DNA of 64,000 nt from Acidimicrobiia bacterium (GCA_040905905.1 JBBDQN010000029.1:47154-111153), one strand, 5' to 3'; positions 31,657 to 54,483 are shown, counted from the stretch's first letter. Program-made: numbers and translations. Notes: generated from the letters alone by a model not told the origin.

Positions 31657-31740
31657 CTGCTCCTCCTACGTCTTAAGCGTCACAACGCAAGGGTCTGTCC
31701 CGATCAGTTGCAGGACCCCTAGAAATGTAGTATATCTCGA

Positions 31741-31756
31741 TGAAACCGCTGTTTCA
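31741..31756. promoter_or_regulatory. palindrome TGAAAC-N4-GTTTCA, candidate IclR operator
   Basis: Perfect 6-bp arms just downstream of an AT-rich -10-like region and upstream of the operon that contains an IclR gene. Confidence 0.55.
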
Positions 31757-31784
31757 ACCAGTGGCAATCGGCAGGAGGAGACAC

Positions 31785-32828
31785 ATGAGGCCAAACGGAA
31801 TGAGAGCGCGAACCCTGGGAGCACTCATAGCAGTGCTCGTGGTGGCCGCCGCCTGCGGGAACGGCGGAGGTTCAAATACCACAGGGGGCGGGACCGATAC
31901 CACCGGTTCCGAACCCGTGGTCATCAATGCGATTCACGGAAGCGGCCTCGACTTCATCCACCTAGTGGGTCTCGCCGCATTCGAGATCCTCGAAGAGCAG
32001 GGCTATGTCGTCGAGAACGTGTTCGCCCAGGAAGCAGAGACTGCGGTGCAAGCCCTGGTCCAGGGTGATGCGCAGGTTGCAGTGAACCTGGGGGTCAACG
32101 TGGGTGTTCCTGCGGTCGATGCCGGAGCCAACATCGTCGATGTGGTGGCGACCCAGCGTCCTACTTGGGCTCTGGCAGCCCGACCCGAGTTCGCGACGAT
32201 GGAGGACCTGGAGGGAGCGCGCATCGGTGTACACGGCGAGGCGTCATTCACCCGGGCGGTGTCGATCTTCTTCGCCGAGGAATACGGGTACACCTACGAG
32301 GAGCTGATCATCCCGGGAAGTGATGTCCGCGCCGAGGCACTCGCCCAGGGCGAACTCGATGCATCGGTCATCGACCTCCCCGACGTGGTTCTTCTCGAGG
32401 CAACCTACCCGGAGTCCTTCCACATCCTCCAGACCATTGGCGAGCGTTTCCCCGAGTTGATCGAGGCCGACGTCTGGATCGACGCCACATGGGCCGAAGC
32501 CAACCCGGAGGTAGCCATAGACGTGGTTGGTGCCTTTGTCCAGGCAGCAAGGAAGATGACCGAAGACACCGCTTACTCGCTCGCGCTAGCCATGGAGCAC
32601 CTGAGCGAGATGGGTGAGGATGTCCTCAGTCGTCTGGTCGAGGAGTACTCCTCGAGGGGCATCTGGCCCCAGGACGGGCTCATCAATGAGGAGCGCGCCC
32701 TCATTACCCTCGAGTTCTTCCAGGAGGTCGGGGAGATAGACATCGAAACCCCAATCACCGGCGAAACTGTTACGCGGTACTTCGACTTCTCCTACTTGGA
32801 AGCGGCTCTACAAGAGCTGGATGGCTGA
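31785..32828 (+). CDS. NMT1/TauA-type ABC substrate-binding lipoprotein
   Basis: AGGAGGAG RBS; lipobox AAAC; DLEGARIG, RAEALAQGELDA. Confidence 0.88.
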   Translation: MRPNGMRARTLGALIAVLVVAAACGNGGGSNTTGGGTDTTGSEPVVINAIHGSGLDFIHLVGLAAFEILEEQGYVVENVFAQEAETAVQALVQGDAQVAVNLGVNVGVPAVDAGANIVDVVATQRPTWALAARPEFATMEDLEGARIGVHGEASFTRAVSIFFAEEYGYTYEELIIPGSDVRAEALAQGELDASVIDLPDVVLLEATYPESFHILQTIGERFPELIEADVWIDATWAEANPEVAIDVVGAFVQAARKMTEDTAYSLALAMEHLSEMGEDVLSRLVEEYSSRGIWPQDGLINEERALITLEFFQEVGEIDIETPITGETVTRYFDFSYLEAALQELDG

Positions 32829-33657
32829 GAGGATGACGGCTGTCGACGGCTGGGGCGAACCCACGGGTTCGCCCCGGCCCGGCCTTCGGTCGCTGCTCGA
32901 TCCCCGGTTCCTGGTGGGGTCGGCAGCCATCGTGGCAGGCTTCCTCGCCTGGGAGATCTACGCTCGCTCGCTCGACAACAACATCTTCTTTCCGACGTTT
33001 CTCTCGATGTTGGCGGCGTTGGGAGACCTCGTGCAGGACCCCGAGTTCTGGGGTGCCTACCGTCTAACGCTGATTCCCTTCGTCTGGGGCTTGCTGGCAT
33101 CCATAGTCCTCGGTGTCGTGATCGGGCTGGTCGCCGGTCTCAGCAGAACCACCTGGAAGCTCGTCTCGCCCTATGTGGCCTTCCTTCACGCTCTTCCGGT
33201 CTCGGTCCTGATCCCAGTTGTAGTGGTGGGCCTCGGGATCGGCCTCGTGGCCAGATCTACCGTGGTCTTCCTCTTCGGTTTCTTTGAGGTGATGCTCAGC
33301 ACCGCGGCCGGAGTCGCCTACATCAGCAACGACATCAGGGATATGGCGCGATCCTTTGGGATGGGACCAGTCCGTTTCTTTCGCCGCGTGGTACTTCCCG
33401 GGGCTATGCCCGCCATCATGGCCGGGATACGGATCGGCACCGGCCGTGCCGTTGTCGGCATGGTGGTGATGGAGTTGCTACTGGTGACGGTGGGAGTCGG
33501 GCGCTTGGTGGCTCGTTATCGCGCCGACTTCGACAGCCCCCGCCTCTATGCGGTTGTATTCACCCTCGCCGCCTTCGGTCTTCTCGCGCTGGCAGTCATG
33601 AGGAGGATCGAGGTCTACGCGCTTCGTTGGCGCAGAGACGCTCCGGGGGCCCAGTGA
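32821..33657 (+). CDS. ABC transporter permease (TauC/SsuC-like)
   Basis: DMARSFG...VVLPGAMPAIMAGIRIG EAA-loop region. Confidence 0.92.
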   Translation: MAERMTAVDGWGEPTGSPRPGLRSLLDPRFLVGSAAIVAGFLAWEIYARSLDNNIFFPTFLSMLAALGDLVQDPEFWGAYRLTLIPFVWGLLASIVLGVVIGLVAGLSRTTWKLVSPYVAFLHALPVSVLIPVVVVGLGIGLVARSTVVFLFGFFEVMLSTAAGVAYISNDIRDMARSFGMGPVRFFRRVVLPGAMPAIMAGIRIGTGRAVVGMVVMELLLVTVGVGRLVARYRADFDSPRLYAVVFTLAAFGLLALAVMRRIEVYALRWRRDAPGAQ

Positions 33658-34454
33658 TCCTGGTCAAGGAGGTCTCCAAAGTGTTCACTCGCGACGGGAA
33701 GTCGTTCGAAGCCCTTCGCGATGTCACATTTGAAGTGGCTACCGGCCGTTTCACCTCTCTGATCGGTCCTAGCGGATGTGGGAAGACCACCCTGCTCAAG
33801 ATGATGGCGGGTCTCACTCGACCCACCAGCGGGACCATCAAGATCGACGACAAAGAGGTAAGCGGGTCAGGCCCGGACCGGGCGCTGGTGTTCCAGAACT
33901 TCGTGCTACTCCCTTGGGCCGACGTCCTGACCAACGCCGCTTTCGGGCTTGAGGCAAGGAGGGTTCCCAAGAAGACGCGGGAGGAGATGGCCCGCTGGCA
34001 GTTGGAGCGTGTCGGTCTTGCTGGGTTCGAGCACCACTACCCGCACGAGTTGTCGGGTGGCATGCAACAGCGTGTCGGAATTGCCAGGGCCCTGGCTGTC
34101 GACCCTGACACCCTCCTCATGGACGAGCCCTTCGGGTCCCTCGACACCATCACCCGCCACGTCATGCAACTCGACCTGCTCCGCCTCTGGCAGGAGACCG
34201 CCAGCAAGACAACGGTGTTCGTCACACACAGCATGGAGGAGGCAGCACTCCTCTCAGACCATGTGATCATCATGGACACCCGTCCGGGCCGGGTGGCCGA
34301 GGTGGTCGAAGTTCCATTCCCTCGCCCTCGAGACGTGGGCCTCACCACCTCACCCGAGTATCAAGCGTTCACCGCAGAGCTGTCCCATCAGCTTGAGCAG
34401 ATGCAGCGAGTCGACATGGCCCGCTCCGCCCAGCTCACCGAAGAAAATGACTGA
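33654..34454 (+). CDS. ABC transporter ATP-binding protein (TauB/SsuB-like)
   Basis: GPSGCGKTT, LSGGMQQR, LLMDEPF, FVTH. Confidence 0.95.
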   Translation: MILVKEVSKVFTRDGKSFEALRDVTFEVATGRFTSLIGPSGCGKTTLLKMMAGLTRPTSGTIKIDDKEVSGSGPDRALVFQNFVLLPWADVLTNAAFGLEARRVPKKTREEMARWQLERVGLAGFEHHYPHELSGGMQQRVGIARALAVDPDTLLMDEPFGSLDTITRHVMQLDLLRLWQETASKTTVFVTHSMEEAALLSDHVIIMDTRPGRVAEVVEVPFPRPRDVGLTTSPEYQAFTAELSHQLEQMQRVDMARSAQLTEEND

Positions 34455-35277
34455 CACCGCTCAGCAGGCGACCGCCCCGGACCCCGTCTCCTGGCAGAAG
34501 GCACCAACGCCCGGGTTGCTGAAGCGAGTCGGCCGGTGGCTTAGCAGATACCGGCTCCAGACCCTTGGTCTGGTCGTCGGTGCCGTCCTCTGGGAGATCG
34601 TGGGACGAGCCGGGGTTTCTCCCGCCCTCCCACCGGTCAGCGCGGTGCTCACCGCCGGGCTCGACCTGTGGTCATCCGAACGTTTCCTGGAAGCAACCAG
34701 GACCAGCGCCAGCGCCATCCTCATCGCCCTCCCGCCCTCGGTCGTGGTGGGTGTGATGCTCGGTCTGCTGATGGGCCTGTTCCGTCCGGTGGAGTGGGTG
34801 TGCAGTCCATACATCAATCTGGCCCTCTCGCTCCCCCTGGTTGCCATCATCCCCATCATCCTCCTCATCTTTGGGCTGTCACGTACCACGATCGTGGTTG
34901 TAATCGTGCTTTACGTGCTCCCAGTCGTGATCGTCAACACCTTCATTGGTGTTCGCAGCGCCGAACCGGACCTGCTCGAGATGGCCTCCTCCTTCAATTC
35001 CGGTCGATGGCTCACCGTCAAGCGAATCGTCTTGCCCTCGGCGCGGCCGCTCACCTTGGCCGGAGTCAGGATCGGGGTGGGTCGATCAATCTCGGGCGGG
35101 ATCGTCGCCGAGCAGGTGGTGGGCGCGTTTGGGGTAGGGGGGCTGGTGCAGCGGCTGGGCGGTGCCTTCGCCGTCGAATCGCTCTACGCCGTGATCATCT
35201 TCATCGGTGCAGTCGGAGTCGCCAGCCTGGCCTTGATAAACCGCGTGGAACAGCGTTACCAGATCGAGAGAGCGTGA
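34447..35277 (+). CDS. ABC transporter permease (TauC/SsuC-like)
   Basis: LLEMASSF...IVLPSARP..LAGVRIG. Confidence 0.92.
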   Translation: MTDTAQQATAPDPVSWQKAPTPGLLKRVGRWLSRYRLQTLGLVVGAVLWEIVGRAGVSPALPPVSAVLTAGLDLWSSERFLEATRTSASAILIALPPSVVVGVMLGLLMGLFRPVEWVCSPYINLALSLPLVAIIPIILLIFGLSRTTIVVVIVLYVLPVVIVNTFIGVRSAEPDLLEMASSFNSGRWLTVKRIVLPSARPLTLAGVRIGVGRSISGGIVAEQVVGAFGVGGLVQRLGGAFAVESLYAVIIFIGAVGVASLALINRVEQRYQIERA

Positions 35278-35300: not shown

Positions 35301-36320
35301 ATGAAGATCGACTCGTTTTGCCACATCCTCCCCCGACCGTTCTTCGATCGGGTGATGGAGCTGCCCGAGACGGCAGAGTCGGCGGGACTACGCCGCCGGA
35401 TTAGCAACATACCTGCGTTGTACGACCTCGAGGTCCGGCTCGGCCAGCTCGAGGAGTTCGGAGCAGGCTATCGCCAACTCCTGTCCATGGCTGCACCGCC
35501 AGTAGAGGATCTGGGGCCACCAGAAGTGTCGGTGGAGTTAGCCCGGATCGCCAACGAGAGCCAGGCGGCACTGGTACGGGACCACCCTGAGCGGTTCGTC
35601 GGCTTCGTGGCGTGCGTCCCGGTCAACGACGTCGACGCCTCGCTGGCCGAGATCGACCACGCCCTCGGAGAACTTGGGGCCTCCGGCATCCAGATCTACA
35701 CCCACGTGAATGGCGAACCCTATGACCGAGCCCGCTTCATGCCCCTGTTCGAGAAGATGGCCGACCTCGACAAGATGATTTGGGTCCATCCCAGCCGCAA
35801 CGCCAACTGGCCCGACTATCCCAGCGAGGACCGCTCGCTCTACGAGATCTGGTGGGCCCTGGGATGGCCCTACGACACTGCCACCCTGATGGCACGACTC
35901 GTCTTCTCCGGCGTACTGGAACGCCATCCCGATCTCAGGATCCTGGTCCATCACGGTGGGAGCATGATCCCCCACTTCTCAGGGCGAATCGGGGCCGGCT
36001 GGGACCAGCTGGGGGCGCGGACCCCACCGGACAAGCGCCACGAGGTGGAGCACACCTTGACACAGCGGCCGTATGACTACTTCAAGAAGTTCTATGCAGA
36101 CACGGCTTTGATGGGAGCCCAACACGCCATCGCCTGCTCGCTCGAGTTCTTCGGCGCCGACCAAATGCTCTTCGCCTCCGACTCGCCATACGATCCGGAG
36201 AAGGGGCCCGGGTTCATCCGGGAGACGATCCGCAACCTCGATGGCCTCGCTATCTCCGACGAGGACCGACAGAAGATCTATTCGGGCAATGCGATCCGGC
36301 TTTTCAACCTGGAATTGTGA
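35301..36320 (+). CDS. amidohydrolase_2 family (aromatic-acid decarboxylase-like)
   Basis: MKIDSFCHI, IWVHP, HHGG.MIP, FASDSPYD; GAGG RBS. Confidence 0.88.
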   Translation: MKIDSFCHILPRPFFDRVMELPETAESAGLRRRISNIPALYDLEVRLGQLEEFGAGYRQLLSMAAPPVEDLGPPEVSVELARIANESQAALVRDHPERFVGFVACVPVNDVDASLAEIDHALGELGASGIQIYTHVNGEPYDRARFMPLFEKMADLDKMIWVHPSRNANWPDYPSEDRSLYEIWWALGWPYDTATLMARLVFSGVLERHPDLRILVHHGGSMIPHFSGRIGAGWDQLGARTPPDKRHEVEHTLTQRPYDYFKKFYADTALMGAQHAIACSLEFFGADQMLFASDSPYDPEKGPGFIRETIRNLDGLAISDEDRQKIYSGNAIRLFNLEL

Positions 36321-37034
36321 ATGAGCGCGTCCCCTCACCCCGTCGGTTACCGCAGGGGCAACGACCTGGTCGACGCTCCCTATCTGGTTCCCGAATTCAA
36401 GAGCACCCGGCTCCGTGCTCCCAGGCAGCCGTTGATCTCTCTCAAGCACACACTATCGGAAGTCACTGGCCCGATCTTCAGCCATCGGTCGGTGTCTCCG
36501 GATGAACACGACCTCACCACACGACATGGGGCCAACCCCATCGGGCAGCGGATCATCCTCGGGGGGAGGGTCCTCGACAACGACGGCCGGCCGGTCCGCA
36601 ACACCCTTGTCGAAATGTGGCAGGCGAACTCCGCCGGCCGCTACATACACAAGTGGGACCGTTACCAGGCACCTCTGGACCCCAACTTCGATGGTGTGGG
36701 GCGATGTATCACCGACGACAACGGCGCTTACCAGTTCACCACCATCAAACCCGGGCCCTACCCGTTCGGAAACCACTACAACGCGTGGCGCCCCTCGCAT
36801 ATCCACCTCTCGGTATTCGGGCCTGCCTTCGTGACCAGGCTTGTGACTCAGATGTACTTCCCCGGCGACCCGCTGCTCGCCCAGGACCCGGTGTTCAACT
36901 CAGTGCCCGGCCCGCGGGCGCGCGATCGTCTCATATGCCGGTTCGACCTCGAGACCACCGTCCCGGATTTCGCCAACTCCTACCGCTTCGACATCGTCCT
37001 CCGGGGGCGCGACGCGACCCCCGTCGAGTCGTGA
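36321..37034 (+). CDS. pcaH: protocatechuate 3,4-dioxygenase-like beta subunit (paralogue 1, altered pocket)
   Basis: WQANSAGRY, KPGPYP, WRPSHIH, RLVTQMYF; Fe ligands intact. Confidence 0.9.
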   Translation: MSASPHPVGYRRGNDLVDAPYLVPEFKSTRLRAPRQPLISLKHTLSEVTGPIFSHRSVSPDEHDLTTRHGANPIGQRIILGGRVLDNDGRPVRNTLVEMWQANSAGRYIHKWDRYQAPLDPNFDGVGRCITDDNGAYQFTTIKPGPYPFGNHYNAWRPSHIHLSVFGPAFVTRLVTQMYFPGDPLLAQDPVFNSVPGPRARDRLICRFDLETTVPDFANSYRFDIVLRGRDATPVES

Positions 37035-37579
37035 GCAGAGAACTGACCCCATCTCAGACCGTCGGCCCCTATTTCGGGGTGTCGATGACACCCGAGGAGC
37101 TGACTCGTCTCGTCCCCGAAGGAACTCCGGACGCCGTCGTCCTCACCGGGGTGGTCACCGACGGTGAGGGGAAGCCTGTTCCGGAGGGGATGATCGAGAT
37201 CTGGCAGGCCGATCGCGAAGGGAGTTACGACCGGGCGCCGCAGGGAGAGGGTGAGGCCTTCACAGGCTTCGGGCGCTGTCACACCGACGATGACGGGCTT
37301 TACCGATTCCTCACCTTGAAGCCAGGGCCCGTGCCCGCATCAAGGGGTGGGATGCAGGCCCCTCATGTCAACATGGCGATTTTCGGGGCCGGCCTCGTAA
37401 AGCCGCTGCGAACCCGGGTCTATTTTTCTGACGAGACGGAGGCCAATCGGACCGATCCGGTCTTGGCGCTTGTCGACGAGTCGCGCCGCCACCTGCTGGT
37501 GGCAGACGTCGATGGTTCGGTTGCCAGCCTCGACATCCGTCTTCAGGGTGATGGTGAGACCCCCTTCTTCGAGCTATGA
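37031..37579 (+). CDS. pcaG: protocatechuate 3,4-dioxygenase-like alpha subunit (paralogue 1)
   Basis: TPSQTVGPYF, EIWQAD, QAPH, LQGDGETPFF. Confidence 0.9.
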   Translation: MSRELTPSQTVGPYFGVSMTPEELTRLVPEGTPDAVVLTGVVTDGEGKPVPEGMIEIWQADREGSYDRAPQGEGEAFTGFGRCHTDDDGLYRFLTLKPGPVPASRGGMQAPHVNMAIFGAGLVKPLRTRVYFSDETEANRTDPVLALVDESRRHLLVADVDGSVASLDIRLQGDGETPFFEL

Positions 37580-38454
37580 CCGACCGCGGCACAACCACCG
37601 CTCGGTCCCCAACCGATGGCCCGGCTGCAGGCTCCGGTAAGGTGGCCCACCGGCCATCGACCCCAAGGGAACAAGTGCGCGGAGCCCAAAGACTCTTCGT
37701 CATCGTCGAACAGCTCAGCGCCCGGCCGATGACGCTCACCGAGGTGGCGAAGTCGGCCGACTTGCCCAAGTCGACCGCGCTGAGGTTCCTCCGCACGCTC
37801 GAGGAGGCAGGCTGGGTTTTCCGGGACCGGCTCGGGACCTACTCGCTGGGGGCGGCCATCGCCGGGCTGGCCGCCCAGTATCTGGCGGGGAACCCGCTGG
37901 TGGCTATGACGACACCGCCGATGCGGGCTCTCCACGCCAAATTGGACGAGACCATCTCGCTCAGCCGCCGGGTTGGCCTGGCCCGAGTTTGTGTCCAAGA
38001 GTTCCCCTCCACCCAGAGCCTGCGATTGGTTCTCGGCCTCGGCGAGCTGGGCCCGCTCCATGCCGGCGCCAGCGGAATCCTCCTCTTCGCCTACATGCCC
38101 GAAGAGGAGAGGGGTCGTCTCGCCGAACGGGGCTTCGAGCGGTATACCTCGAAAACCATCGTTGATCTGAAGGAGCTAGAAGCCGAAGCTGAGAAGGTGA
38201 GACAACAGGGCTGGGCGATCACCAAAGGCCAGAAGACCGAGGGAGGAGTAGCCATCGCCGTCCCCATCTCCGAGCCGGGATCGAGGAGCGAGATAGCGGC
38301 TCTCGGTGTCTTCGGTCCGGCGATCAGGTGCAGCACCAAGCGCGAACAGGACATCTGGCTCGAGGCGCTGGTCGAGACCGCTGCGGAGGTAAACGAGGCG
38401 ACGGCGAGAGTGGCCTCGCCTGCCGCCGACCGTATTCGACCGGCCGGGGCCTAG
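37576..38454 (+). CDS. IclR family regulator
   Basis: LTEVAKSADLPKSTALRFL HTH; PLHAGASG; AIAVPI. Confidence 0.93.
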   Translation: MTDRGTTTARSPTDGPAAGSGKVAHRPSTPREQVRGAQRLFVIVEQLSARPMTLTEVAKSADLPKSTALRFLRTLEEAGWVFRDRLGTYSLGAAIAGLAAQYLAGNPLVAMTTPPMRALHAKLDETISLSRRVGLARVCVQEFPSTQSLRLVLGLGELGPLHAGASGILLFAYMPEEERGRLAERGFERYTSKTIVDLKELEAEAEKVRQQGWAITKGQKTEGGVAIAVPISEPGSRSEIAALGVFGPAIRCSTKREQDIWLEALVETAAEVNEATARVASPAADRIRPAGA

Positions 38455-38459
38455 CTGCA

Positions 38460-39242
38460 GTGCTCACAGAACAGCAGAGGCGGGAGTCGAGCCGGCTCCT
38501 GCTCGAGGCCGAGGCAAACCGGGTCCAGATTCCCGGGCCATCGCGAAGCTGGCCCGAGATGACCCTCGACGACTCGTATGCCATCGCCGCCATAGGTATC
38601 GAGACCAAGGTCTCGAGAGGCGCACTTTTCCGGGGCCGGAAGGTTGGTTTGACATCGAGGGCGATGCAACGCTCATCTCGCATCGACGAGCCCGACTTCG
38701 GAGTGCTCCTCGACAACATGTTCTTTGAGGACGGCGCCGTCCTCTCTCGGGCCGATTACACGGTCCCCCGGGTCGAAGCCGAGCTGGCGTTCATCATGGG
38801 CGACCGTCTCGCCGGGCCGGACGTGACCTTAGAAGACGTCTTAGTAGCTATCGACCATATCTTCCCCTCCATCGAGTTGATCGATGCTCGGGCCGAGGAC
38901 CCCCGCACCATCTTCGACACCGTCGCCGACAATGGCGCCGCCGCCGGGGTCATCCTGGGCAGGGAGAGGATCGAGCCGGGCGATCTAGACCTGCGTTGGG
39001 TGGGAGCGATCCTCCTCTGCAACGGCGAGGTCGAGGAGACGGGGTTGGGGGCCGGAGTGCTAGGACATCCCGCCAACGCAGTGGTGTGGCTGGCCAACAA
39101 GCTGGCCGGGTTCGGGCTGGCCATTGAGCCTGGCGAGGTGGTGCTTACCGGATCCTTTGTCCGACCAGTGTGGGCCGAGTCAGGTGATGTGGTAGTCGCC
39201 GATTTTGGAGATCTCGGAACGATCAACCTGGAGTTCGCCTAG
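38460..39242 (+). CDS. hpcG: 2-oxo-hept-4-ene-1,7-dioate hydratase-like (FAH family hydratase/decarboxylase)
   Basis: GRKVGLTSRAMQ, EPDFG, PRVEAELAF, DTVADN, VLGHPA. Confidence 0.82.
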   Translation: MLTEQQRRESSRLLLEAEANRVQIPGPSRSWPEMTLDDSYAIAAIGIETKVSRGALFRGRKVGLTSRAMQRSSRIDEPDFGVLLDNMFFEDGAVLSRADYTVPRVEAELAFIMGDRLAGPDVTLEDVLVAIDHIFPSIELIDARAEDPRTIFDTVADNGAAAGVILGRERIEPGDLDLRWVGAILLCNGEVEETGLGAGVLGHPANAVVWLANKLAGFGLAIEPGEVVLTGSFVRPVWAESGDVVVADFGDLGTINLEFA

Positions 39243-40016
39243 ATGCCTCCCAACCTCCTCCGCAACGTTCTGGGAAGAGGAGATCCCCAAATCGGCCTCC
39301 TCTGCAATCTGGCGTCGAGTTATGCAATCGAGGTGGCGGCAGGAGCCGGGTTCGACTGGATGCTGATCGACGCCGAGCACTCCCCTGCCGACCTGGAGAA
39401 CGTGCTCCGCCAGCTTCAGGCCCTTGCCGCATATCCGACCGCCCCCGTGGTTCGAGTCCCGTGGAACGAGATGGTGGCGATCAAGCGATATCTCGACATC
39501 GGCGTCCAGTCGCTCCTCATCCCATATGTGGAGACCCCGGATCAGGCCGGTCTCGCGGTGCGCTCGACCCGGTACCCGCCGTCAGGAATCCGGGGTGTGG
39601 CACTGGCCACCAGGGCCAGCGGATTCGGCCGAGTTCCCGACTATGCACCGAAAGCTCACGAGGACATCGTGGTCATCGCCCAACTCGAGAATCAGGCCGG
39701 CATGGACAACCTCGAGGCGATCGCCGCGGTTGACGGTATCGATGCGCTTCTCATCGGGCCCTCTGATCTCCACGCGGCGTTCGGTCACGTTGGCGAGACC
39801 ACCCACCCCGACGTGGTTGCCCTCATCGACGCTGCCATCGAGCGCATCGTTGCCACCGGCAAGATCGCCGGGGTGTTCGCCCCTATCGAAGATCTCGCTC
39901 GGCGCTGGATCGACCTGGGAGCACGCCTGGTGCTTGTGGGTACCGACATCGGAATCCTGGCGAGGGGCACTGACATCCTGGCCGAAAGGTTTAAGCGAGC
40001 CAGTGGCCATGGCTAG
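39243..40016 (+). CDS. hpcH: HpcH/HpaI class II pyruvate aldolase
   Basis: FDWMLIDAEHSP, RYPPSGIRG, IGPSDL. Confidence 0.85.
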   Translation: MPPNLLRNVLGRGDPQIGLLCNLASSYAIEVAAGAGFDWMLIDAEHSPADLENVLRQLQALAAYPTAPVVRVPWNEMVAIKRYLDIGVQSLLIPYVETPDQAGLAVRSTRYPPSGIRGVALATRASGFGRVPDYAPKAHEDIVVIAQLENQAGMDNLEAIAAVDGIDALLIGPSDLHAAFGHVGETTHPDVVALIDAAIERIVATGKIAGVFAPIEDLARRWIDLGARLVLVGTDIGILARGTDILAERFKRASGHG

Positions 40017-41013
40017 GCCCCGGGTCTGGGACATCCACGCCCACTACCTCCCTGCCTCGGCTCTCGACCTGATGGGCCAGGGCCTGGTCCAAGTCCACCT
40101 AGACACCGTCGACGGGACTCCCGACGCAATTACCGTCAACGGGATGCCGGTCGGTGCCACCATCCACCAGCTGGCCAACGTGTCGGGGATCATCGCTGCC
40201 ACCGATCGGGCCGGTATCGACAGCCGGGTGCTCTCCCCCCCGCCCTTCACCTACCGGTACTGGGACGACCCGGCCCGCACCGTCCGCCTCGACCGGCTCA
40301 TCAACGAGGCCACCGCTGCGGTCGTGGCCGACCACCCCGATCGGTTCGTCGGGCTGGCCACCGTCCCCCTCCAGGACACCGAAGCGGCGATCGCCGAGGC
40401 TATGAGAGCGCGGGACGAGCTGGGGCTGGTGGGAGTCACCCTGGGGACCAATGTTGCCGGTGGCAATGTCGACGACCACGATCGCCGCCCTTTCCTCGCC
40501 GCGGTAGCCGAAGCCGGGATGCCAGTGCTGATCCACCCCGACTTCGTCCCCAACCCGCGGACCGCCGACTACTACCTCATCAATCTGATCGGGTTGCCAG
40601 TCGAATCGACGGTGACCATGGCCAACATGGTGTTCTCCGGGATCTTCGAGGAGATCCCTGAGCTCAGGGTCTGCTTCATGCACGGAGGCGGAGCCGCCCC
40701 TTATCTTCTCGGTCGGTGGGACCACGGCTGGCGGGTCCGGCCCGAGGCCAGGCTCGATAGGACCAGCCCGCCTTCCCAGGGCTTGGCCAACGTGTTCTGC
40801 GACACTCTGACCCACTCGCCGCTCGCGCTCGCCTTCCTCGTCGAGCTGCTCGGCGAGGCCAACGTTGTGATCGGCACCGACCTTCCATTCGATGTCGAAG
40901 ACGCCGATCCCCGTGGTCATCTGCGCCAGGCCCCTCGACTTACCGACCGCCAGATCGAGGTTATCGAGACGGAGAGCCCGTTGCGCTGGCTGACCGGGGA
41001 GGCCACCCCATGA
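40009..41013 (+). CDS. amidohydrolase_2 family (ACMSD-like)
   Basis: DIHAH, LIHP, HGGG..PY..GR.DHGW, GTDLPFD. Confidence 0.88.
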   Translation: MARPRVWDIHAHYLPASALDLMGQGLVQVHLDTVDGTPDAITVNGMPVGATIHQLANVSGIIAATDRAGIDSRVLSPPPFTYRYWDDPARTVRLDRLINEATAAVVADHPDRFVGLATVPLQDTEAAIAEAMRARDELGLVGVTLGTNVAGGNVDDHDRRPFLAAVAEAGMPVLIHPDFVPNPRTADYYLINLIGLPVESTVTMANMVFSGIFEEIPELRVCFMHGGGAAPYLLGRWDHGWRVRPEARLDRTSPPSQGLANVFCDTLTHSPLALAFLVELLGEANVVIGTDLPFDVEDADPRGHLRQAPRLTDRQIEVIETESPLRWLTGEATP

Positions 41014-41354
41014 TCATCCGCCGCTTCGAAGACCTTGAGAAGTACTCACCCCCTGGTCATCAGGGTGTGGTCAACCGACTTCTGGCCGGGAGGTCCCTTG
41101 GCGACGGCGACTCGGTGAGCGTGTGGCACGGCCGGCTCCAGCCGGGCGGGCGATCCGACCTCCACACCCACGAAGGGAGTCTCCAGATCTATTTCGCGAT
41201 CTCGGGTGAAATGGTGGTCGGCGACGGGAACGTCGAGTCGGTGCTCACACCGCTGGGGACCGTGGTCGTCCCGGTGGGGTCGCAGCACTTCATCGAGAAC
41301 CGCAGCAGCCGGCTTGCCGAAATTCTCGTGATCTCGGTTCCCGCCCTCCGCTGA
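41010..41354 (+). CDS. cupin domain protein
   Basis: PGGRSDLHTHE, PVGSQHFIEN. Confidence 0.85.
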   Translation: MIIRRFEDLEKYSPPGHQGVVNRLLAGRSLGDGDSVSVWHGRLQPGGRSDLHTHEGSLQIYFAISGEMVVGDGNVESVLTPLGTVVVPVGSQHFIENRSSRLAEILVISVPALR

Positions 41355-41355
41355 G

Positions 41356-42330
41356 CTAACCGAGCAAGGGAAGGGCCAGAGGCCGAATCGGGCCGGCGGT
41401 GGCCCCTCGCAGTTTGAGGGCGGCTCCCAGGTAACAGAACTCGTAGAGCTCCGCTTCGGCAATTGCCTCGAGATCGACCACCTCGATGATGGGGACCCCG
41501 GCCTCGGCCAGTAAGTAGGTGTGGACCGGCAGCCAATTCTCCGGGTCGGCCGAGGGGAGCTGCTCTAAGGCGACATTGTCCGCCCCGATCATGGCCGCTC
41601 CTCTCTCCGCCAGCCAGGTTGCACCCGCCCGGTCCAGACCGGGCTCACGTAGGAGATATGCGCCCGGGTCGGGCCAGGTGGAACCCCGTCCGGTGCGGAT
41701 CATCACCACGTCACCGGGTAGGACCTCGGTTCCCTGCCGGGATGCCGTGGCCTCCAGCTCGTGGGGCCCAATGGGGAACGAGTCGGGAAGAAGGTCCACG
41801 TCGTGGGCGGTGGCCACGTCAAGGAGGATCCCGCGGGCGATCACCGGTGGGTGTGTGTCGGGACCGGCAACCGTCCACCCGGTGCTTCCCAGGTGCTCAC
41901 CGGTGGTGAAGCCATTCCAAATGGCGTCGCCATACCCGAAGTGGTTGAGCGTGTCCACATGGGTGCCGCAATGGGTGAACATGGATAGCGAGTCGGCCGA
42001 CCATCCGACGAGCCGGTTCTGTTCGGCGCCCACCCCCACCGGATCGTCGACCACGCTGCCTTGGGGTGTGTGGTTCATCCAGATCTGGAACGGGGGCTCA
42101 CCCCCCTGGGTCCAAGTTGGCATTCCGGCGAACAGGTCGACCGAAAGGTCGAAAATCCTGGTGGCGTCCGCCCGGCCCAACATAGATGCCGAAATCTCGG
42201 GAGTGACCAGATTCAGCATCCCGATCTGATCGTCCACCCCGAACGGGCTGAGGGTCACCTTATGGCGGACCGCCGACCAGGCAGCGATCCTGGAGCGGGT
42301 GTGGTCGTCAAGGTAGGAGGGCCCGCACAT
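41356..42330 (-). CDS. cyclase family metallohydrolase (kynurenine formamidase-like)
   Basis: HCGTHVD, IRTG, EPG, IGADN, H..LL...G..IIE. Confidence 0.9.
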   Translation of the reverse strand: MCGPSYLDDHTRSRIAAWSAVRHKVTLSPFGVDDQIGMLNLVTPEISASMLGRADATRIFDLSVDLFAGMPTWTQGGEPPFQIWMNHTPQGSVVDDPVGVGAEQNRLVGWSADSLSMFTHCGTHVDTLNHFGYGDAIWNGFTTGEHLGSTGWTVAGPDTHPPVIARGILLDVATAHDVDLLPDSFPIGPHELEATASRQGTEVLPGDVVMIRTGRGSTWPDPGAYLLREPGLDRAGATWLAERGAAMIGADNVALEQLPSADPENWLPVHTYLLAEAGVPIIEVVDLEAIAEAELYEFCYLGAALKLRGATAGPIRPLALPLLG

Positions 42331-42332: not shown

Positions 42333-43514
42333 CTAGTTAGCTCCGGCCGGCGGGGTTGAACGGACCCATTCCCTAATTTGGCTTTCATGCTCTCCTAGTT
42401 GAGGCGGCGGCATCGGGTCCTCATGAGCCCCGTCGTAATTGATCGGGCTCTTCACCAATCTCAGCGGCCCCCGCAAGGGATCCAGGAGAGAGGTCACCAT
42501 CGCCGCCCCTTCGGGTGAGTCGAAGACTTGGTCGATACTCCTGGTCGGTGCCGCGGGCACCCCCGCCTTGGCGAGGGCATTCACCCAGTGGGCGACGTCC
42601 GCGGTCTCGAAAATTGCCGACATCTCGGCGACCAGGCTCACCCGGTTGCTCACGCGGTTTGAGTTGGTTGCATAACGGGGGTCTCCCGCCAAATCGGCAC
42701 GCCCCAAGGCGGAACAGGTCGCCCGGAAAAGCTTATCGTTGGCTGCGGCGAGAACGACACGCCCGTCAAGGGCGTCGAACGCCTGGTAAGGAACGATGTT
42801 GGGGTGGGCGTCGCCGAAGGCGGTTGGGACCACACCACCCATCAGATAATTGGCGGCCTGGTTGACCAGGCTGGCCACACTGGCCTCGAAGAGACCGACC
42901 TCGACCCGCCTCCCCGCACCGTCCTGGTCTCGCTGTCGGAGCGCAGCGAGAATGCCGGTGGCGGCGTACAGCCCAGCGATCACATCGAGGACGGCTACTC
43001 CAATCTTCACTCCTCCCCGACCCGGTTCACCGGTTATCGACATAAACCCCGATATCGCCTGCATCATCAAGTCGTAACCCGGAAAGTTGCGCTGCCTGGG
43101 ATGGGCAAAGGCCGGGATCGAGCAGTAAACCAGACGAGGGTTGATAGTTCTCAGGTCGTCATACCCCAGACCGTGGCGGTCCATGACGTCGGAGCGGAAG
43201 TTCTCAACGAGGACATCGGAGCGGGCTGCGATCTCACGAGCAAGAGCCAGATCGTCCGGAGCCTCCAAGTCGAGCGCGATCGATCTCTTATTTCGATTGA
43301 TCGAGAGGAAATAGGCGGCGTCCCCGGCGATAAAGGGAGGGCCCCAGGTCCGCGTGTCGTCGCCGGTGCCGGGTCGTTCGATCTTGATCACGTCGGCGCC
43401 AAGATCGCCGAGGACCATGGTGCACAACGGCCCGGCCAGGACCCTGGTGAAGTCAGCGATCACCACACCATCCAGCGGCAGCGCTGATCGATCAGGAGTG
43501 GCTGTGTTTGCCAT
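42333..43514 (-). CDS. CaiB/BaiF family III CoA transferase
   Basis: LAGPLC..LGDLGADVIKIE, NRNKRSI, VENFR, PQLGEH. Confidence 0.94.
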   Translation of the reverse strand: MANTATPDRSALPLDGVVIADFTRVLAGPLCTMVLGDLGADVIKIERPGTGDDTRTWGPPFIAGDAAYFLSINRNKRSIALDLEAPDDLALAREIAARSDVLVENFRSDVMDRHGLGYDDLRTINPRLVYCSIPAFAHPRQRNFPGYDLMMQAISGFMSITGEPGRGGVKIGVAVLDVIAGLYAATGILAALRQRDQDGAGRRVEVGLFEASVASLVNQAANYLMGGVVPTAFGDAHPNIVPYQAFDALDGRVVLAAANDKLFRATCSALGRADLAGDPRYATNSNRVSNRVSLVAEMSAIFETADVAHWVNALAKAGVPAAPTRSIDQVFDSPEGAAMVTSLLDPLRGPLRLVKSPINYDGAHEDPMPPPQLGEHESQIREWVRSTPPAGAN

Positions 43515-54114: not shown

Positions 54115-54483
54115 ATGGGCTCGATTGAGGAAGGGATGGAGGTACGGCGCCAGGTCCTGGGGTCGGAACACGTCGACCGGGTGACGGCGGCAACCAGCGA
54201 ACTCGATCGCGACTTTCAAGATTGGATCACCGAGAACGTCTGGGGCGGGATCTGGACCCGACCAGGTCTCGACCTGAAGACGAGGAGCATGCTCACGATC
54301 GCGATACTGGGCGCCCTCAACCACGAAGAGCTCGAGCTGCATCTAAGAGCGACGCGTAATACCGGAGTGACGCCGCCCGAGGTGGCCGAGGTTCTCCTCC
54401 ACGTCGCCGCCTATGCCGGCGTCCCCGCCGCCAACCGGGCTTTCAAGCTCGCCAAGTCGATTTACGAGCAGGAGACGCTGTGA
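54115..54483 (+). CDS. pcaC: 4-carboxymuconolactone decarboxylase
   Basis: GMEVRRQVLG, WGGIWTRPGL, YAGVPAAN. Confidence 0.92.
   Translation: MGSIEEGMEVRRQVLGSEHVDRVTAATSELDRDFQDWITENVWGGIWTRPGLDLKTRSMLTIAILGALNHEELELHLRATRNTGVTPPEVAEVLLHVAAYAGVPAANRAFKLAKSIYEQETL

What the first reader, a model, noticed from the sequence alone, without database searches (positions are those of the whole stretch)
35301..41354. PcaHG paralogue lacking carboxylate-binding residues, linked to a decarboxylase and meta-type lower-pathway enzymes: candidate new catabolic route
Seen: the window has two pcaHG pairs. The pca-cluster copy keeps PDYKST, PYPW and alpha QARG. This copy has PEFKST (36396-36398), PYPF (36765-36767) and alpha FGAG (37388-37390), with the Fe ligands intact. 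Its operon has no pcaB/C/D. Instead it has an amidohydrolase_2 directly upstream, then IclR, an HpcG-like FAH enzyme, an HpcH aldolase, a second amidohydrolase and a cupin. Established (from memory): in Pseudomonas putida numbering these positions are beta-Tyr324, beta-Trp449 and alpha-Arg133, which line the protocatechuate carboxylate pocket. Arg133 and Trp449 changes are known to shift specificity toward catechol or 4-sulfocatechol. Inference: an intradiol enzyme retuned to a non-carboxylated or differently substituted catechol. One model is decarboxylation of a trihydroxybenzoate to pyrogallol, cleavage to 2-hydroxymuconate or its pyrone, then FAH and aldolase steps to pyruvate.
Basis: partly seen in the sequence, partly recalled or inferred. 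Interest (0 to 1): 0.85.

Follow-up and report, generated by a model that had tools for sequence, protein, structure and literature searches.

The report
Retuned PcaHG dioxygenase in new operon
A second copy of a well-known aromatic ring-opening enzyme has lost the residues thought to grip its usual substrate and always sits in its own conserved operon, so it probably starts an undescribed breakdown route for a different plant-type phenolic compound.

Summary
PcaH1/PcaG1 (36321-37579) keep the iron ligands. They carry beta-Tyr324Phe, beta-Trp449Phe and alpha-Arg133Ala, while the pca-cluster copy (54480-55810) keeps Tyr/Trp/Arg. This is not a one-off. A monophyletic clade (40 of 87 tree rows, SH-aLRT 100) shares Phe449, never has Arg at alpha-133 (15 sequences) and mostly lacks Tyr324. 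Wherever contigs reach far enough, it sits in the order ABC importer, amidohydrolase AH1, PcaH, PcaG, IclR, HpaH-like hydratase, HpaI-like aldolase. Eighty canonical loci gave 0 AH1, 0 hydratase and 59 PcaB. Seventeen variant loci gave 0 PcaB. Two related genomes have only the variant pair and no PcaB orthologue. Best reading (about 0.5): a self-contained route in which an intradiol enzyme with an uncharged distal pocket cleaves a non-protocatechuate substrate, probably a vicinal triol of pyrogallol type. The 2-hydroxymuconate-type product would then be decarboxylated, hydrated and split to pyruvate. The substrate is untested. AH2 is ACMSD-like, which points to decarboxylation after ring opening rather than before. 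Trp449Phe alone is not diagnostic, and one related genome lacks the hydratase and aldolase. I rate it a new variant of a known kind, of moderate to high interest.

The parts
31740..32828 (+). Substrate-binding protein of the ABC importer (divergent, weakly NMT1/OpuAC-like)
   Evidence: The ORF is. Pfam gives only sub-threshold OpuAC/NMT1_3 hits and the best PDB match is 3qsl at E 4e-4. Orthologues of 77-92% identity sit at the same place in G190, G234, G254 and 5 metagenome contigs.
32821..33657 (+). ABC permease 1
   Evidence: BPD_transp_1, E 7.2e-17. Syntenic.
33627..34454 (+). ABC ATPase (taurine/nitrate/SaoA-like subfamily)
   Evidence: ABC_tran, E 4.2e-32. The best NCBIfam models are SaoA and the taurine ATPase, both below cut-off.
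34393..35277 (+). ABC permease 2
   Evidence: BPD_transp_1, E 1.3e-19.
35301..36320 (+). AH1: COG2159-type amidohydrolase_2 of unknown reaction. Its stop codon abuts the pcaH1 start.
   Evidence: PF04909, E 3.1e-38. It passes no NCBIfam model. The best PDB match is the uncharacterised 3ij6 (E 2.2e-42), then LigW (E 3e-26) and ACMSD (E 3e-25). The N-terminal motif is D-x-F-x-H, not HxH. It lies upstream of PcaH in 11 of 11 variant contigs that reach that far and in 0 of 80 canonical loci.
36321..37034 (+). PcaH1: beta subunit of a PcaHG-type intradiol dioxygenase with Phe26 (position 324) and Phe149 (position 449)
37031..37579 (+). PcaG1: alpha subunit with Ala120 at position 133
   Evidence: It is 39% identical to PcaG2.
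37576..38454 (+). IclR-family regulator inside the operon. This is the maximal ORF. The first ~45 residues are not conserved in orthologues, so the true start may lie further downstream.
   Evidence: IclR_C and HTH_IclR. It scores 128 bits on the PcaR/PcaU/PobR subfamily model, below the 284.75 cut-off. It lies downstream of PcaG in 9 of 9 variant contigs that reach that far.
38460..39242 (+). HpaH/HpcG-like 2-oxo-enoate hydratase (FAH fold)
   Evidence: TIGR02312 scores 329.3 bits (cut-off 351.5). DmpE scores 190 and DmpH 173. It is present in 7 of 7 variant contigs that reach that far and in 0 of 80 canonical loci.
39243..40016 (+). HpaI/HpcH-like class II pyruvate aldolase
   Evidence: PF03328, E 1.1e-44. 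TIGR02311 scores 302.4 bits (cut-off 368.8).
40009..41013 (+). AH2: ACMSD-like amidohydrolase_2, the putative decarboxylase of a carboxylated ring-fission product
   Evidence: Human ACMSD gives E 2.7e-53 and P. fluorescens ACMSD E 1.5e-39. HxH, His176, His225 and Asp291 are kept. Its position varies between relatives.
41010..41354 (+). Small monocupin (114 aa) with both metal-binding motifs, function unknown
   Evidence: Cupin_2, E 1.2e-9. The best PDB match is 1v70 (TTHA0104), E 7.6e-11. It follows AH2 in G190, G234, L118 and L134.
41356..42330 (-). Cyclase-family (PF04199) metal hydrolase, convergent with the operon. Conserved neighbour, role unknown.
   Evidence: Syntenic in G190, G234, L118 and L134.
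42333..43514 (-). Family III CoA-transferase. Conserved neighbour, role unknown.
   Evidence: PF02515, E 2.4e-118. All NCBIfam equivalogs score below cut-off. Syntenic.
25136..26128 (+). AH3: a third ACMSD-type amidohydrolase_2, possibly part of the same island
   Evidence: A 63%-identical orthologue lies between the cyclase and the CoA-transferase in metagenome contig L134.
27113..30360 (+). Enoyl-CoA hydratase, acyl-CoA synthetase and SDR block. It recurs beside the operon in relatives. The link to the operon is an inference.
   Evidence: The same three families flank the operon in G190 (L031) and are contiguous with the CoA-transferase in L134.
54480..55810 (+). Comparator, not part of the operon: canonical PcaH2/PcaG2 with Tyr324, Trp449 and Arg133, followed by a PcaB-type lyase

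Best explanation
Genes 31740-41354 form one tightly packed operon. The junctions from AH1 through PcaH, PcaG and IclR, and from the hydratase through the aldolase, AH2 and the cupin, overlap or abut. The IclR-hydratase and permease-AH1 gaps are 5 and 23 bases. I read it as a self-contained catabolic module for an aromatic compound other than protocatechuate.

An ABC importer brings the compound in. A PcaHG-type Fe(III) intradiol dioxygenase then opens the ring. Its catechol- and iron-binding core is unchanged, but the distal, carboxylate-facing end has lost its charged and polar residues. Tyr324 is Phe, Leu or Val. Alpha-Arg133 is Ala, Gly, Thr or Leu. Trp449 is Phe.

The only downstream enzymes are a 2-oxo-enoate hydratase and a 4-hydroxy-2-oxo-acid aldolase, and there is no cycloisomerase, lactonase or dehydrogenase. 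So the ring-fission product must already carry a 2-hydroxy/2-oxo group. An intradiol enzyme makes such a product only from a vicinal triol (pyrogallol type). The product would be a 2-hydroxymuconate derivative or its pyrone.

That product is then decarboxylated by an ACMSD-family enzyme (AH2), hydrated by the HpaH-like enzyme, and split by the HpaI-like aldolase to pyruvate plus a short aldehyde-acid. AH1, translationally coupled to pcaH1, either prepares the ring substrate (decarboxylation) or opens the pyrone.

What is shown: the residue changes, the clade, the synteny and the absence of a beta-ketoadipate link. What is inferred: the substrate class, the order of steps and the role of each amidohydrolase.
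For: 1. Residues:.

2. The clade is real. 31 of the 120 best homologues of PcaH1 carry Phe449, with position 324 as Phe 13, Leu 9, Val 6 and Tyr 3. The tree of 87 rows puts 40 of them, window included, in one clade with SH-aLRT 100, nested among Trp449 sequences of Actinomycetota type. Alpha-133 is Ala 8, Thr 3, Gly 2, Leu 2 and never Arg in 15 clade sequences, against Arg in 96% of 79 canonical ones.

3. Synteny. G190 and G234 hold all 14 genes from the binding protein to the CoA-transferase in the same order. Of the 19 stretches matched by the pattern scan, 14 belong to the clade. Among those 14, AH1 is upstream in 11 of 11 that reach far enough, IclR is downstream in 9 of 9, and hydratase plus aldolase follow in 7 of 7.

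4. Control. In 80 canonical Tyr/Trp loci with up to 10 kb of flank, AH1, hydratase, AH2 and cupin were each found 0 times, the aldolase once, and PcaB 59 times. PcaB was found in 0 of 17 variant loci.

5. G190 (97% complete) and G234 (93% complete) have only the variant pair. No canonical pcaHG or PcaB orthologue was found there (best 32% identity in G190, none in G234).

6. AH2 matches ACMSD at E 2.7e-53 with its catalytic motifs intact. ACMSD-family enzymes OpaD, PraH and NbaD decarboxylate carboxylated ring-fission products (PMC6362003, passages read).

7. Precedent. P. putida PcaHG turns pyrogallol, a poor substrate, into 2-pyrone-6-carboxylate (PMC6628648, passages). A yeast catechol 1,2-dioxygenase was assayed on pyrogallol with 2-hydroxymuconic acid listed as the product (PMC9204233, passages).
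Against: - PcaH1 and PcaG1 both pass NCBI's equivalog models for protocatechuate 3,4-dioxygenase, so by profile they are ordinary members.
- The pocket roles of positions 324, 133 and 449 are recalled and not verified by any search.
- Trp449Phe also occurs in a lineage that keeps Tyr324 and Arg133 and sits with quinate/shikimate genes, where protocatechuate is the expected substrate.
- Four clade members keep Tyr324.
- 17 of the 150 best alpha-like cluster representatives also lack Arg133, so loss of this Arg is not unique to the clade.
- G254 (unpublished genome, 97% complete) has importer, AH1, PcaHG and IclR, but no hydratase was found. Its best aldolase match is 28% identical, and its AH2 orthologue lies on another contig.
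- AH2 is not fixed in place. It follows the aldolase in the window, G190, G234, L118, L130 and L134. It does not in L116, L133 or L125, and it lies upstream of the importer in L123.
- An ACMSD-type decarboxylase implies that the ring product still bears a carboxyl group. This sits awkwardly with a pocket that has lost its carboxylate binders, unless that carboxyl is ortho to the hydroxyls.
- AH1 lacks the first metal-ligand His.
- No tautomerase and no second FAH-fold enzyme are present.
- No enzyme was assayed.
Confidence: 0.5

Rival explanations
1. PcaH1G1 is still a protocatechuate 3,4-dioxygenase. The three substitutions are tolerated drift, or they tune affinity. The neighbouring genes then either form a new route from 3-carboxymuconate or are merely adjacent.
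For: Both subunits exceed the curated equivalog cut-offs. The iron ligands and Arg457 are intact. In G190 and G234 it is the only pcaHG found. A Phe449 lineage in a quinate/shikimate context presumably uses protocatechuate. The IclR is nearest the PcaR/PcaU/PobR subfamily.
Against: Alpha-Arg133 is never kept in 15 clade sequences, and Tyr324 is replaced in 43 of 47. A PcaB gene was found in none of the 17 variant loci, and no orthologue was found in G190 or G234. 3-Carboxymuconate has no 2-oxo group, so neither the hydratase nor the aldolase could act on it, and there is no oxidoreductase in the operon to create one (inference from the chemistry). G000 already has a canonical pair 17 kb away.
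Confidence: 0.15
2. The enzyme cleaves a 4-substituted catechol whose substituent is neutral, bulky or differently charged, for example hydroxyquinol, a 4-alkylcatechol or 4-sulfocatechol. It would give an ordinary substituted muconate or maleylacetate. In that case the hydratase, aldolase and AH2 serve another branch or a side-chain product.
For: The replacements at 324 and 133 vary among small or apolar residues (Phe/Leu/Val and Ala/Gly/Thr/Leu). That looks like loss of a specific contact rather than gain of a new one. The importer's ATPase is nearest the taurine/sulfonate-type families. G254 has the dioxygenase core without the hydratase and aldolase (unpublished genome). A CoA-ligase, crotonase and SDR block that could process a side chain recurs nearby.
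Against: The operon and its conserved flanks hold no cycloisomerase, maleylacetate reductase or sulfomuconolactone-type partner. Hydratase and aldolase follow the dioxygenase in 7 of 7 contigs that reach far enough, and in G190 and G234. The junctions from the hydratase to the cupin overlap or abut, which argues for one pathway.
Confidence: 0.2
3. Same pathway class, different order. The imported compound is a carboxylated triol such as 2,3,4-trihydroxybenzoate. It binds with its carboxyl ortho to the chelating hydroxyls, away from the old carboxylate site. It is cleaved first, and the carboxy-2-hydroxymuconate is then decarboxylated by AH2. AH1 acts as pyrone hydrolase or hydratase rather than as an aromatic-acid decarboxylase.
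For: AH2 is closest to ACMSD. The characterised relatives OpaD, PraH and NbaD all act after ring fission on 3- or 5-carboxy-2-hydroxy(amino)muconate semialdehydes (PMC6362003 passages). AH1 lacks the first metal ligand. P. putida PcaHG gives a pyrone from pyrogallol (PMC6628648 passages), so a lactone-opening step may be needed.
Against: There is no direct evidence for any substrate. AH2 is not always in the operon. The natural abundance of such a compound is unclear. This rival overlaps the best explanation and differs only in the order of steps.
Confidence: 0.15

Closest known systems
Protocatechuate 3,4-dioxygenase PcaHG (P. putida 2PCD/3PCA; Acinetobacter 1EO2)
   Same: Two adjacent genes encode the beta and alpha subunits. 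E is 4.5e-77 to 2pcd_M and 6.2e-34 to 1eo2_A. The Tyr408, Tyr447, His460 and His462 ligands and Arg457 are kept. It passes TIGR02422 and TIGR02423.
   Different: Beta-324 is Phe/Leu/Val, beta-449 is Phe and alpha-133 is Ala/Gly/Thr/Leu across the clade. It is never next to pcaB/C/D. It has its own importer, regulator and a hydratase/aldolase lower pathway.
Type II protocatechuate 3,4-dioxygenase acting on 4-sulfocatechol (Hydrogenophaga intermedia, Agrobacterium radiobacter S2)
   Same: It is a PcaHG paralogue recruited to a non-protocatechuate catechol in its own gene cluster. The papers were seen only as a search listing and abstracts. The details are recalled.
   Different: That pathway, as recalled, continues through a PcaB-like cycloisomerase, a sulfomuconolactone hydrolase and maleylacetate reductase. 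None of these is here. I could not obtain its sequences, so the residue pattern was not compared.
Homoprotocatechuate meta-pathway lower enzymes HpaH/HpcG and HpaI/HpcH
   Same: These are the best-scoring families for the hydratase and the aldolase. Both align end to end with the models.
   Different: Both score below the equivalog cut-offs (329.3 against 351.5, and 302.4 against 368.8). There is no extradiol dioxygenase, dehydrogenase, isomerase or HpaG decarboxylase. They are fed by an intradiol enzyme.
ACMSD-family ring-fission-product decarboxylases (NbaD/ACMSD, OpaD, PraH)
   Same: AH2 and AH3 keep the HxH, His, His and Asp motifs and the Arg that corresponds to the second substrate-binding Arg.
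   Different: They pass no NCBIfam model. The residue aligned to the first substrate Arg is not Arg, though that part of the alignment has low confidence. The partner dioxygenase is intradiol, so the substrate would be a diacid and not a semialdehyde.
Pyrogallol cleavage by intradiol enzymes (side activity of P. putida PcaHG; yeast catechol 1,2-dioxygenase; the pyrogallol 1,2-oxygenase activity of Azotobacter, which is recalled)
   Same: The proposed reaction is the same: intradiol cleavage of a vicinal triol to 2-hydroxymuconate or 2-pyrone-6-carboxylate (PMC6628648 and PMC9204233 passages).
   Different: Those are side activities of enzymes with other main substrates. Here a whole clade and operon would be dedicated to it. 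This is not shown.
Gallate / protocatechuate 4,5-cleavage lower pathway (LigI, LigJ, LigK, GalB, GalC)
   Same: The logic is the same: a hydroxy- or oxo-muconate is hydrated and then split by an aldolase to pyruvate. Amidohydrolase_2 enzymes take part.
   Different: AH1 and AH2 match LigJ only weakly (E 2.7e-13 and 8.6e-16). LigI is not among the PDB hits. The aldolase is of HpcH type, not RraA type. The dioxygenase is intradiol PcaHG, not LigAB/GalA.

Membership tests
Protocatechuate 3,4-dioxygenase (PcaHG, TIGR02422/TIGR02423) | Profile score above the curated equivalog cut-off for both subunits | tested here: met
   Beta scores 348.5 against 296.4. Alpha scores 194.3 against 126.25.
Protocatechuate 3,4-dioxygenase (PcaHG, TIGR02422/TIGR02423) | Fe(III) ligands Tyr408, Tyr447, His460 and His462, plus Arg457 | tested here: met
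   All are kept in the alignment to 2pcd_M and in every clade member examined.
Protocatechuate 3,4-dioxygenase (PcaHG, TIGR02422/TIGR02423) | Residues at the carboxylate end of the pocket: beta-Tyr324, alpha-Arg133 and beta-Trp449 (their role is recalled, not checked in a paper) | tested here: not met
   The window has Phe, Ala and Phe. The clade has Phe/Leu/Val (Tyr in 4), Ala/Thr/Gly/Leu, and Phe. Canonical sequences have Tyr 100%, Arg 96% and Trp 100%.
Protocatechuate 3,4-dioxygenase (PcaHG, TIGR02422/TIGR02423) | Genomic link to beta-ketoadipate genes (pcaB/C/D) | tested here: not met
   PcaB was found in 0 of 17 variant loci against 59 of 80 canonical loci. No PcaB orthologue was found in G190 or G234.
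Protocatechuate 3,4-dioxygenase (PcaHG, TIGR02422/TIGR02423) | Catalytic preference for protocatechuate | not testable with these tools
   This needs an enzyme assay.
HpaH 2-oxo-hept-4-ene-1,7-dioate hydratase (TIGR02312) | Score above the equivalog cut-off | tested here: not met
   It scores 329.3 against 351.5, with a full-length alignment.
HpaI 4-hydroxy-2-oxoheptanedioate aldolase (TIGR02311) | Score above the equivalog cut-off | tested here: not met
   It scores 302.4 against 368.8. GarL-type models score similarly and are also below cut-off.
ACMSD-type decarboxylases of the amidohydrolase_2 superfamily (for AH2) | HxH, a strand-5 His, the His of HGGG and the Asp of the xDxP motif, plus the second substrate Arg | tested here: met
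   The alignment to 4ign_A shows DIHAH, IHP, MHGGG, GTDLPF and LLGRW.
ACMSD-type decarboxylases of the amidohydrolase_2 superfamily (for AH2) | The first substrate-binding Arg (human Arg47, recalled) | tested here: inconclusive
   The aligned residue is not Arg, but this N-terminal insert aligns with low confidence. The top hit, 4ign, itself has Ala at that place.
LigW / gamma-resorcylate-type aromatic acid decarboxylases (for AH1) | A first-strand metal ligand (Glu or His of ExH/HxH) | tested here: not met
   AH1 reads D-S-F-C-H. Its closest structure, 3ij6, reads D-A-Y-A-H. The His, His and Asp of the later strands are kept.
4-Sulfocatechol (type II P34O) pathway | A partner cycloisomerase, sulfomuconolactone hydrolase and maleylacetate reductase in the cluster (composition recalled) | tested here: not met
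   No Lyase_1 gene and no alcohol-dehydrogenase-type reductase gene lies between 31740 and 43514.

The most novel reading that the evidence does not exclude
This clade is the first dedicated bacterial vicinal-triol (pyrogallol-type) intradiol dioxygenase. By cleaving a triol it makes a 2-hydroxymuconate-type diacid directly. That product enters a dehydrogenase-free, meta-like lower pathway of ACMSD-type decarboxylase, HpaH-like hydratase and HpaI-like aldolase. The result would be a hybrid of ortho-type chemistry and meta-type downstream steps. It would give a gene to the long-known pyrogallol 1,2-oxygenase activity (recalled) and supply the missing enzyme for funnelling syringol and S-lignin products.
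Probability: 0.3. Interest if true: 0.75.

Novelty: new variant of a known kind. Interest (0 to 1): 0.6.

Why it matters
Genome annotation pipelines will name this pair protocatechuate 3,4-dioxygenase, because it passes the equivalog models. Pathway predictions for these sediment and soil Actinomycetota would therefore wrongly infer a beta-ketoadipate route. In two genomes they would infer a route that has no continuation.

If the enzyme is a triol-specific intradiol dioxygenase, it joins ortho-type ring opening to a meta-type lower pathway without the usual dehydrogenase. It would also be a natural answer to a stated engineering need. PMC6628648 (passages) asks for a dioxygenase that cleaves pyrogallol to a product cells can use, so that syringol from S-lignin can be assimilated.

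The clade also offers a natural experiment on how the distal pocket of PcaHG sets substrate choice. Three positions are replaced and the rest of the active site is untouched.

Tried and rejected
Genome-contig scan with an alignment of 32 clade PcaH sequences. They served only as a control set.

Taxonomic range. The clade-level alpha subunit (62% identity or more) was found in 3 of 400 other genomes of the class, all in the window's family. It was found in none of 400 other genomes sampled from the phylum. There the best match was 53% identical and the top five loci were canonical. These are samples: 'not found in those searched'.

Literature on the residue roles. Searches for Tyr324/Arg133/Trp449/Arg457 in several spellings found nothing relevant. 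Two look-ups of a structural paper by a recalled DOI and PMC id were not held. A review held none of the residue terms. The pocket roles therefore rest on recall.

Novelty in print. Searches (pyrogallol, intradiol, 2-hydroxymuconate, PcaHG, gene cluster, decarboxylase, trihydroxybenzoate, amidohydrolase) listed no paper describing this operon. Author manuscripts and subscription papers were not searched. A search for '3IJ6' found nothing. Supplements were not asked for.

Uninformative results. PDB sequence searches for the binding protein, cupin and cyclase gave only uncharacterised or weak matches. The ESM Atlas search for AH1 returned only 'amidohydrolase' clusters. The promoter and terminator scan was at or below chance: 2 found against 1.7 expected, and 2 against 6.5.

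Expression. One RNA-library run (X21) holds short contigs on the binding protein, IclR, the IclR/hydratase junction (38404-38714), the aldolase/AH2 junction (39940-40181), the cyclase and the CoA-transferase. They differ from the window by 0.4 to 6.6 letters in 100. DNA can be present in such libraries, and a contig across two genes shows no single transcript. I do not count this as evidence of transcription. Parts without cover in X21 mean nothing.

DNA runs. Contigs of X4, X5 and X11 (two sediment and one soil metagenome, three studies) cover most of 31000-44000 at roughly 97% identity. This shows near relatives of the operon there and nothing more.

Ideas considered and dropped:
- AH1 as gallate decarboxylase. 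Decarboxylases of this superfamily, as I recall, need a hydroxyl ortho to the carboxyl, which gallate lacks.
- Hydroxyquinol as substrate feeding the hydratase. Maleylacetate has no 2-oxo group.
- The cupin as 3-hydroxyanthranilate dioxygenase. It gives only a generic Cupin_2 hit and is 114 aa long.

So the long contigs behind P0021, P0027 and P0030 (Leu/Val subclades) could not be examined.

Claims that rest on the unpublished genome G254: the partial synteny in L033, its Leu324/Phe449/Ala133 pattern, its rows in the comparison and the tree, its second canonical pair and PcaB, and the missing hydratase and aldolase.

Full report
WHAT IS THERE

On the + strand, 31740-41354 holds twelve tightly packed genes:
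- a substrate-binding protein, two BPD_transp_1 permeases and an ABC ATPase;
- an Amidohydro_2 protein, AH1 (35301-36320);
- PcaH1 (36321-37034) and PcaG1 (37031-37579);
- an IclR regulator (37576-38454);
- an HpaH/HpcG-like hydratase (38460-39242);
- an HpaI/HpcH-like aldolase (39243-40016);
- a second Amidohydro_2 protein, AH2 (40009-41013);
- a 114-aa cupin (41010-41354).

The AH1 stop abuts the pcaH1 start. The pcaH1/pcaG1, pcaG1/iclR, aldolase/AH2 and AH2/cupin junctions overlap by 4 to 8 bases. Convergent on the minus strand lie a cyclase-family hydrolase (41356-42330) and a family III CoA-transferase (42333-43514). Beyond them come unrelated genes of DsrE, flavoprotein and Usp types.

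The second pair, PcaH2/PcaG2 (54480-55810), lies in an ordinary pca cluster with IclR, two CoA-transferase subunits, a Lyase_1 (PcaB-type) gene and an alpha/beta hydrolase.

PcaH1 aligns with the P. putida beta chain at E 4.5e-77 with one two-residue gap. Chain residue 24 (Tyr324) is Phe and residue 149 (Trp449) is Phe. Tyr408, Tyr447, Arg457, His460 and His462 are unchanged.

PcaG1 aligns with the Acinetobacter alpha chain. 'IFARG' reads 'IFGAG'. The PDB variant chain 2bux_A differs from wild type at exactly this Arg (His instead), which fixes it as residue 133.

The canonical copy reads Tyr, Trp and Arg. Both subunits of the variant still pass NCBI's equivalog models, so routine annotation would call them protocatechuate 3,4-dioxygenase.

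IT IS A CLADE, NOT AN ACCIDENT

Of the 120 best database homologues of PcaH1, 31 have Phe449. Among those, position 324 is Phe in 13, Leu in 9, Val in 6 and Tyr in 3. The other 89 have Trp449, with Tyr324 wherever that part is present.

A maximum-likelihood tree of 87 beta sequences places 40 of them, the window's included, on one side of a branch with SH-aLRT 100. That clade is nested among Trp449 sequences of Actinomycetota type. The Phe/Trp label needs two changes on the tree.

The second Phe449 origin is a small group of metagenome sequences (L124, L128, L131, L132). They keep Tyr324 and alpha-Arg133. L128 and L132, the two whose flanks I scanned, lie among shikimate/quinate dehydrogenase, type II dehydroquinase and MFS transporter genes. 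So Trp449Phe by itself does not mark the new type.

I compared 48 clade and 162 canonical beta sequences, and 15 clade and 79 canonical alpha sequences. I asked only for columns at least 85% conserved in the canonical set and at most 10% shared by the clade. This returned eight beta columns (324, 360, 376, 415, 446, 449, 465, 519) and three alpha columns (133 and two near the C-terminus).

Column 449 is circular, because part of the clade set was collected by it. Columns 324 and 133 are not. Alpha-133 is Ala 8, Thr 3, Gly 2, Leu 2, and never Arg. No column for an iron ligand or for Arg457 appears among the eleven. From recall, none of the other residues I remember as lining the catechol site (400, 477, 479, 491) appears either. 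The change is therefore concentrated at one end of the site.

In the library of cluster representatives, 133 of the 150 best alpha-like proteins have Arg at this place and 17 do not. Some of those 17 are fused or beta-like hits. Other Arg-less lineages therefore exist.

THE NEIGHBOURHOOD IS CONSERVED AND EXCLUSIVE

In a sample of 401 genomes of the class, 26 have a PcaG match. Only three besides the window's genome match at 62-75% identity, and all are in the same family.

G190 and G234 carry all fourteen genes from the binding protein to the CoA-transferase in the same order and orientation, at 65-90% protein identity.

A pattern scan of metagenome contigs for the Phe449 motif gave 19 stretches. 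Fourteen belong to the clade, four to the quinate-type group, and one matched none of the query proteins. Within the fourteen:
- AH1 precedes pcaH in 11 of 11 contigs that reach that far.
- IclR follows pcaG in 9 of 9.
- Hydratase plus aldolase follow IclR in 7 of 7.

As a control I used the 80 canonical loci, each with up to 10 kb on either side. They contain AH1, hydratase, AH2 and cupin 0 times each, the aldolase once, and PcaB 59 times. PcaB is in none of the 17 variant loci.

G190 (97% complete) and G234 (93% complete) have no canonical pcaHG and no PcaB orthologue found with the window's proteins. In those organisms the variant enzyme cannot be feeding a beta-ketoadipate pathway.

WHAT DOES NOT FIT NEATLY

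AH2 and the cupin are less fixed. They follow the aldolase in the window, G190, G234, L118 and L134, and AH2 does so in L130, where the contig ends within it. They do not in L116, L133 or L125. In L123 an AH2 orthologue lies upstream of the importer.

The unpublished genome G254 (97% complete) has importer, AH1, PcaHG and IclR followed directly by a CoA-transferase fragment at the contig end. No hydratase was found there. Its best aldolase match is 28% identical, and its AH2 orthologue (69%) is on another contig.

The invariable core is thus importer, AH1, PcaHG and IclR. Hydratase and aldolase are present in all but that one case.

WHAT THE PARTNERS ARE

AH2 matches human ACMSD at E 2.7e-53 and P. 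fluorescens ACMSD at E 1.5e-39. It keeps HxH, both later His residues, the Asp and the second substrate Arg. AH3 (25136-26128) is of the same type.

In PMC6362003 (passages read), the ACMSD relatives OpaD and PraH are decarboxylases of 3-carboxy- and 5-carboxy-2-hydroxymuconate semialdehyde. This family is therefore known for acting on carboxylated ring-fission products.

AH1 is different. Its nearest structure is an uncharacterised Lactobacillus protein (3ij6, E 2.2e-42). LigW and ACMSD follow at about E 1e-25. Its first-strand motif has Phe where the family has His or Glu.

The hydratase and aldolase align end to end with the HpaH and HpaI models but fall short of their cut-offs. This is what one expects of enzymes acting on a close analogue of the C7 diacid.

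The cupin has both metal motifs but only generic matches.

HOW IT MOST LIKELY WORKS (INFERENCE)

An Fe(III) Tyr2His2 enzyme cleaves between two adjacent hydroxylated carbons. The operon offers no cycloisomerase, lactonase, reductase or dehydrogenase. It offers only enzymes that need a 2-oxo-enoate. An intradiol cut yields such a compound only if the carbon next to the cut also bears a hydroxyl, that is, if the substrate is a vicinal triol.

Pyrogallol-type cleavage by intradiol enzymes has precedent. P. putida PcaHG converts pyrogallol, poorly, to 2-pyrone-6-carboxylate (PMC6628648 passages). A yeast catechol 1,2-dioxygenase was assayed on pyrogallol with 2-hydroxymuconic acid listed as the product (PMC9204233 passages).

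The residues lost are, as I recall them, those facing the substrate's carboxylate. They are replaced by variable apolar residues. This suggests the para position no longer carries a carboxylate.

Two orders of steps remain open:
- AH1 decarboxylates an imported ortho-hydroxybenzoate to the triol, which is then cleaved.
- A triol with an ortho carboxyl (2,3,4-trihydroxybenzoate type) is cleaved first. AH2 then removes the carboxyl from the 3- or 5-carboxy-2-hydroxymuconate, and AH1 opens a pyrone or hydrates.

AH2's family membership favours the second order. The translational coupling of AH1 to pcaH1 fits either. Hydration and aldol cleavage would then give pyruvate and a C2 to C4 aldehyde-acid.

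COMPARISON WITH THE KNOWN

By fold, ligands and profile score this is a PcaHG. By pocket residues, neighbours and independence from pcaB it is not the protocatechuate enzyme of the beta-ketoadipate pathway.

The nearest precedent for a recruited PcaHG paralogue is the 4-sulfocatechol type II enzyme (search listing only; the rest is recalled). Its downstream genes are absent here.

The lower half resembles the homoprotocatechuate and catechol meta pathways, but without their extradiol dioxygenase and dehydrogenase. I found no paper describing this combination. Those searches do not cover subscription journals or author manuscripts.

WHERE IT OCCURS

Contigs about 97% identical to the operon are present in three further sediment and soil metagenome runs from three studies. 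The clade was not found in 400 genomes sampled across the rest of the phylum.

VERDICT

That this is a distinct enzyme subfamily in its own pathway is well supported (about 0.75). That the substrate is a vicinal triol is the best available inference (about 0.4 to 0.5). Pyrogallol itself is only one candidate.

I class it as a new variant of a known kind, with interest 0.6.

Noticed in passing
L128:3297-4613, L131:3293-4609, L132:9715-11032 (metagenome contigs); L124 is a short copy: A second, independent PcaH lineage has Phe at position 449 but keeps Tyr324 and alpha-Arg133. L128 and L132, the two whose flanks I scanned, lie among shikimate/quinate dehydrogenase, type II dehydroquinase, MFS transporter and BKACE genes. 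On the tree the window's canonical PcaH2 joins this group, but on long branches, so that join is unsure.
   Followed up: partly
window 25136-31050; L031:386-3125; L134:7341-13933: A block of AH3, alpha/beta hydrolase, enoyl-CoA hydratase, acyl-CoA synthetase (nearest the malonyl-CoA synthase subfamily, 337 bits against a 558 cut-off), SDR and GntR recurs beside the operon. In L134, cyclase, AH3, CoA-transferase, SDR, synthetase and crotonase run contiguously on one strand. It could process a side chain, or the aldehyde-acid left by the aldolase (for instance through a hydroxy-acid and its CoA ester). This is speculation.
   Followed up: partly
whole genomes G000, G190, G254: Amidohydro_2 (ACMSD-like) paralogues are numerous in this lineage. 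There are 8 matches to AH2 in G000, 5 in G190 and 12 in G254. This fits a lifestyle built on substituted aromatic acids.
   Followed up: no
window 31090-31656 (-); L123:4252-4818 (-): A peroxiredoxin (AhpC/TSA) gene sits directly upstream of, and divergent from, the importer in both the window and a metagenome relative. This would be a sensible companion if the substrate is an autoxidising polyphenol.
   Followed up: no
window 43761-45856 (-): A DsrE/DsrF-like protein and a pyridine-nucleotide-disulphide oxidoreductase with a weak sulfide-dehydrogenase central-domain hit lie just past the CoA-transferase. They appear unrelated to the operon.
   Followed up: no
window 58853-60310 (-): A 485-aa ORF has a weak PaaA/PaaC (phenylacetate-CoA oxygenase subunit) match, E 5e-7, downstream of the canonical pca cluster.
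   Followed up: no
window 23660-24922 (+): A 420-aa ORF has no Pfam or NCBIfam match, between hemA and AH3. It may be a real unknown gene or a spurious frame in high-GC DNA.
   Followed up: no
window 38404-38714 and 39940-40181: Short contigs from one metatranscriptomic library (run X21) bridge the IclR/hydratase and aldolase/AH2 junctions. This is suggestive of expression in the field but is not proof.
   Followed up: partly
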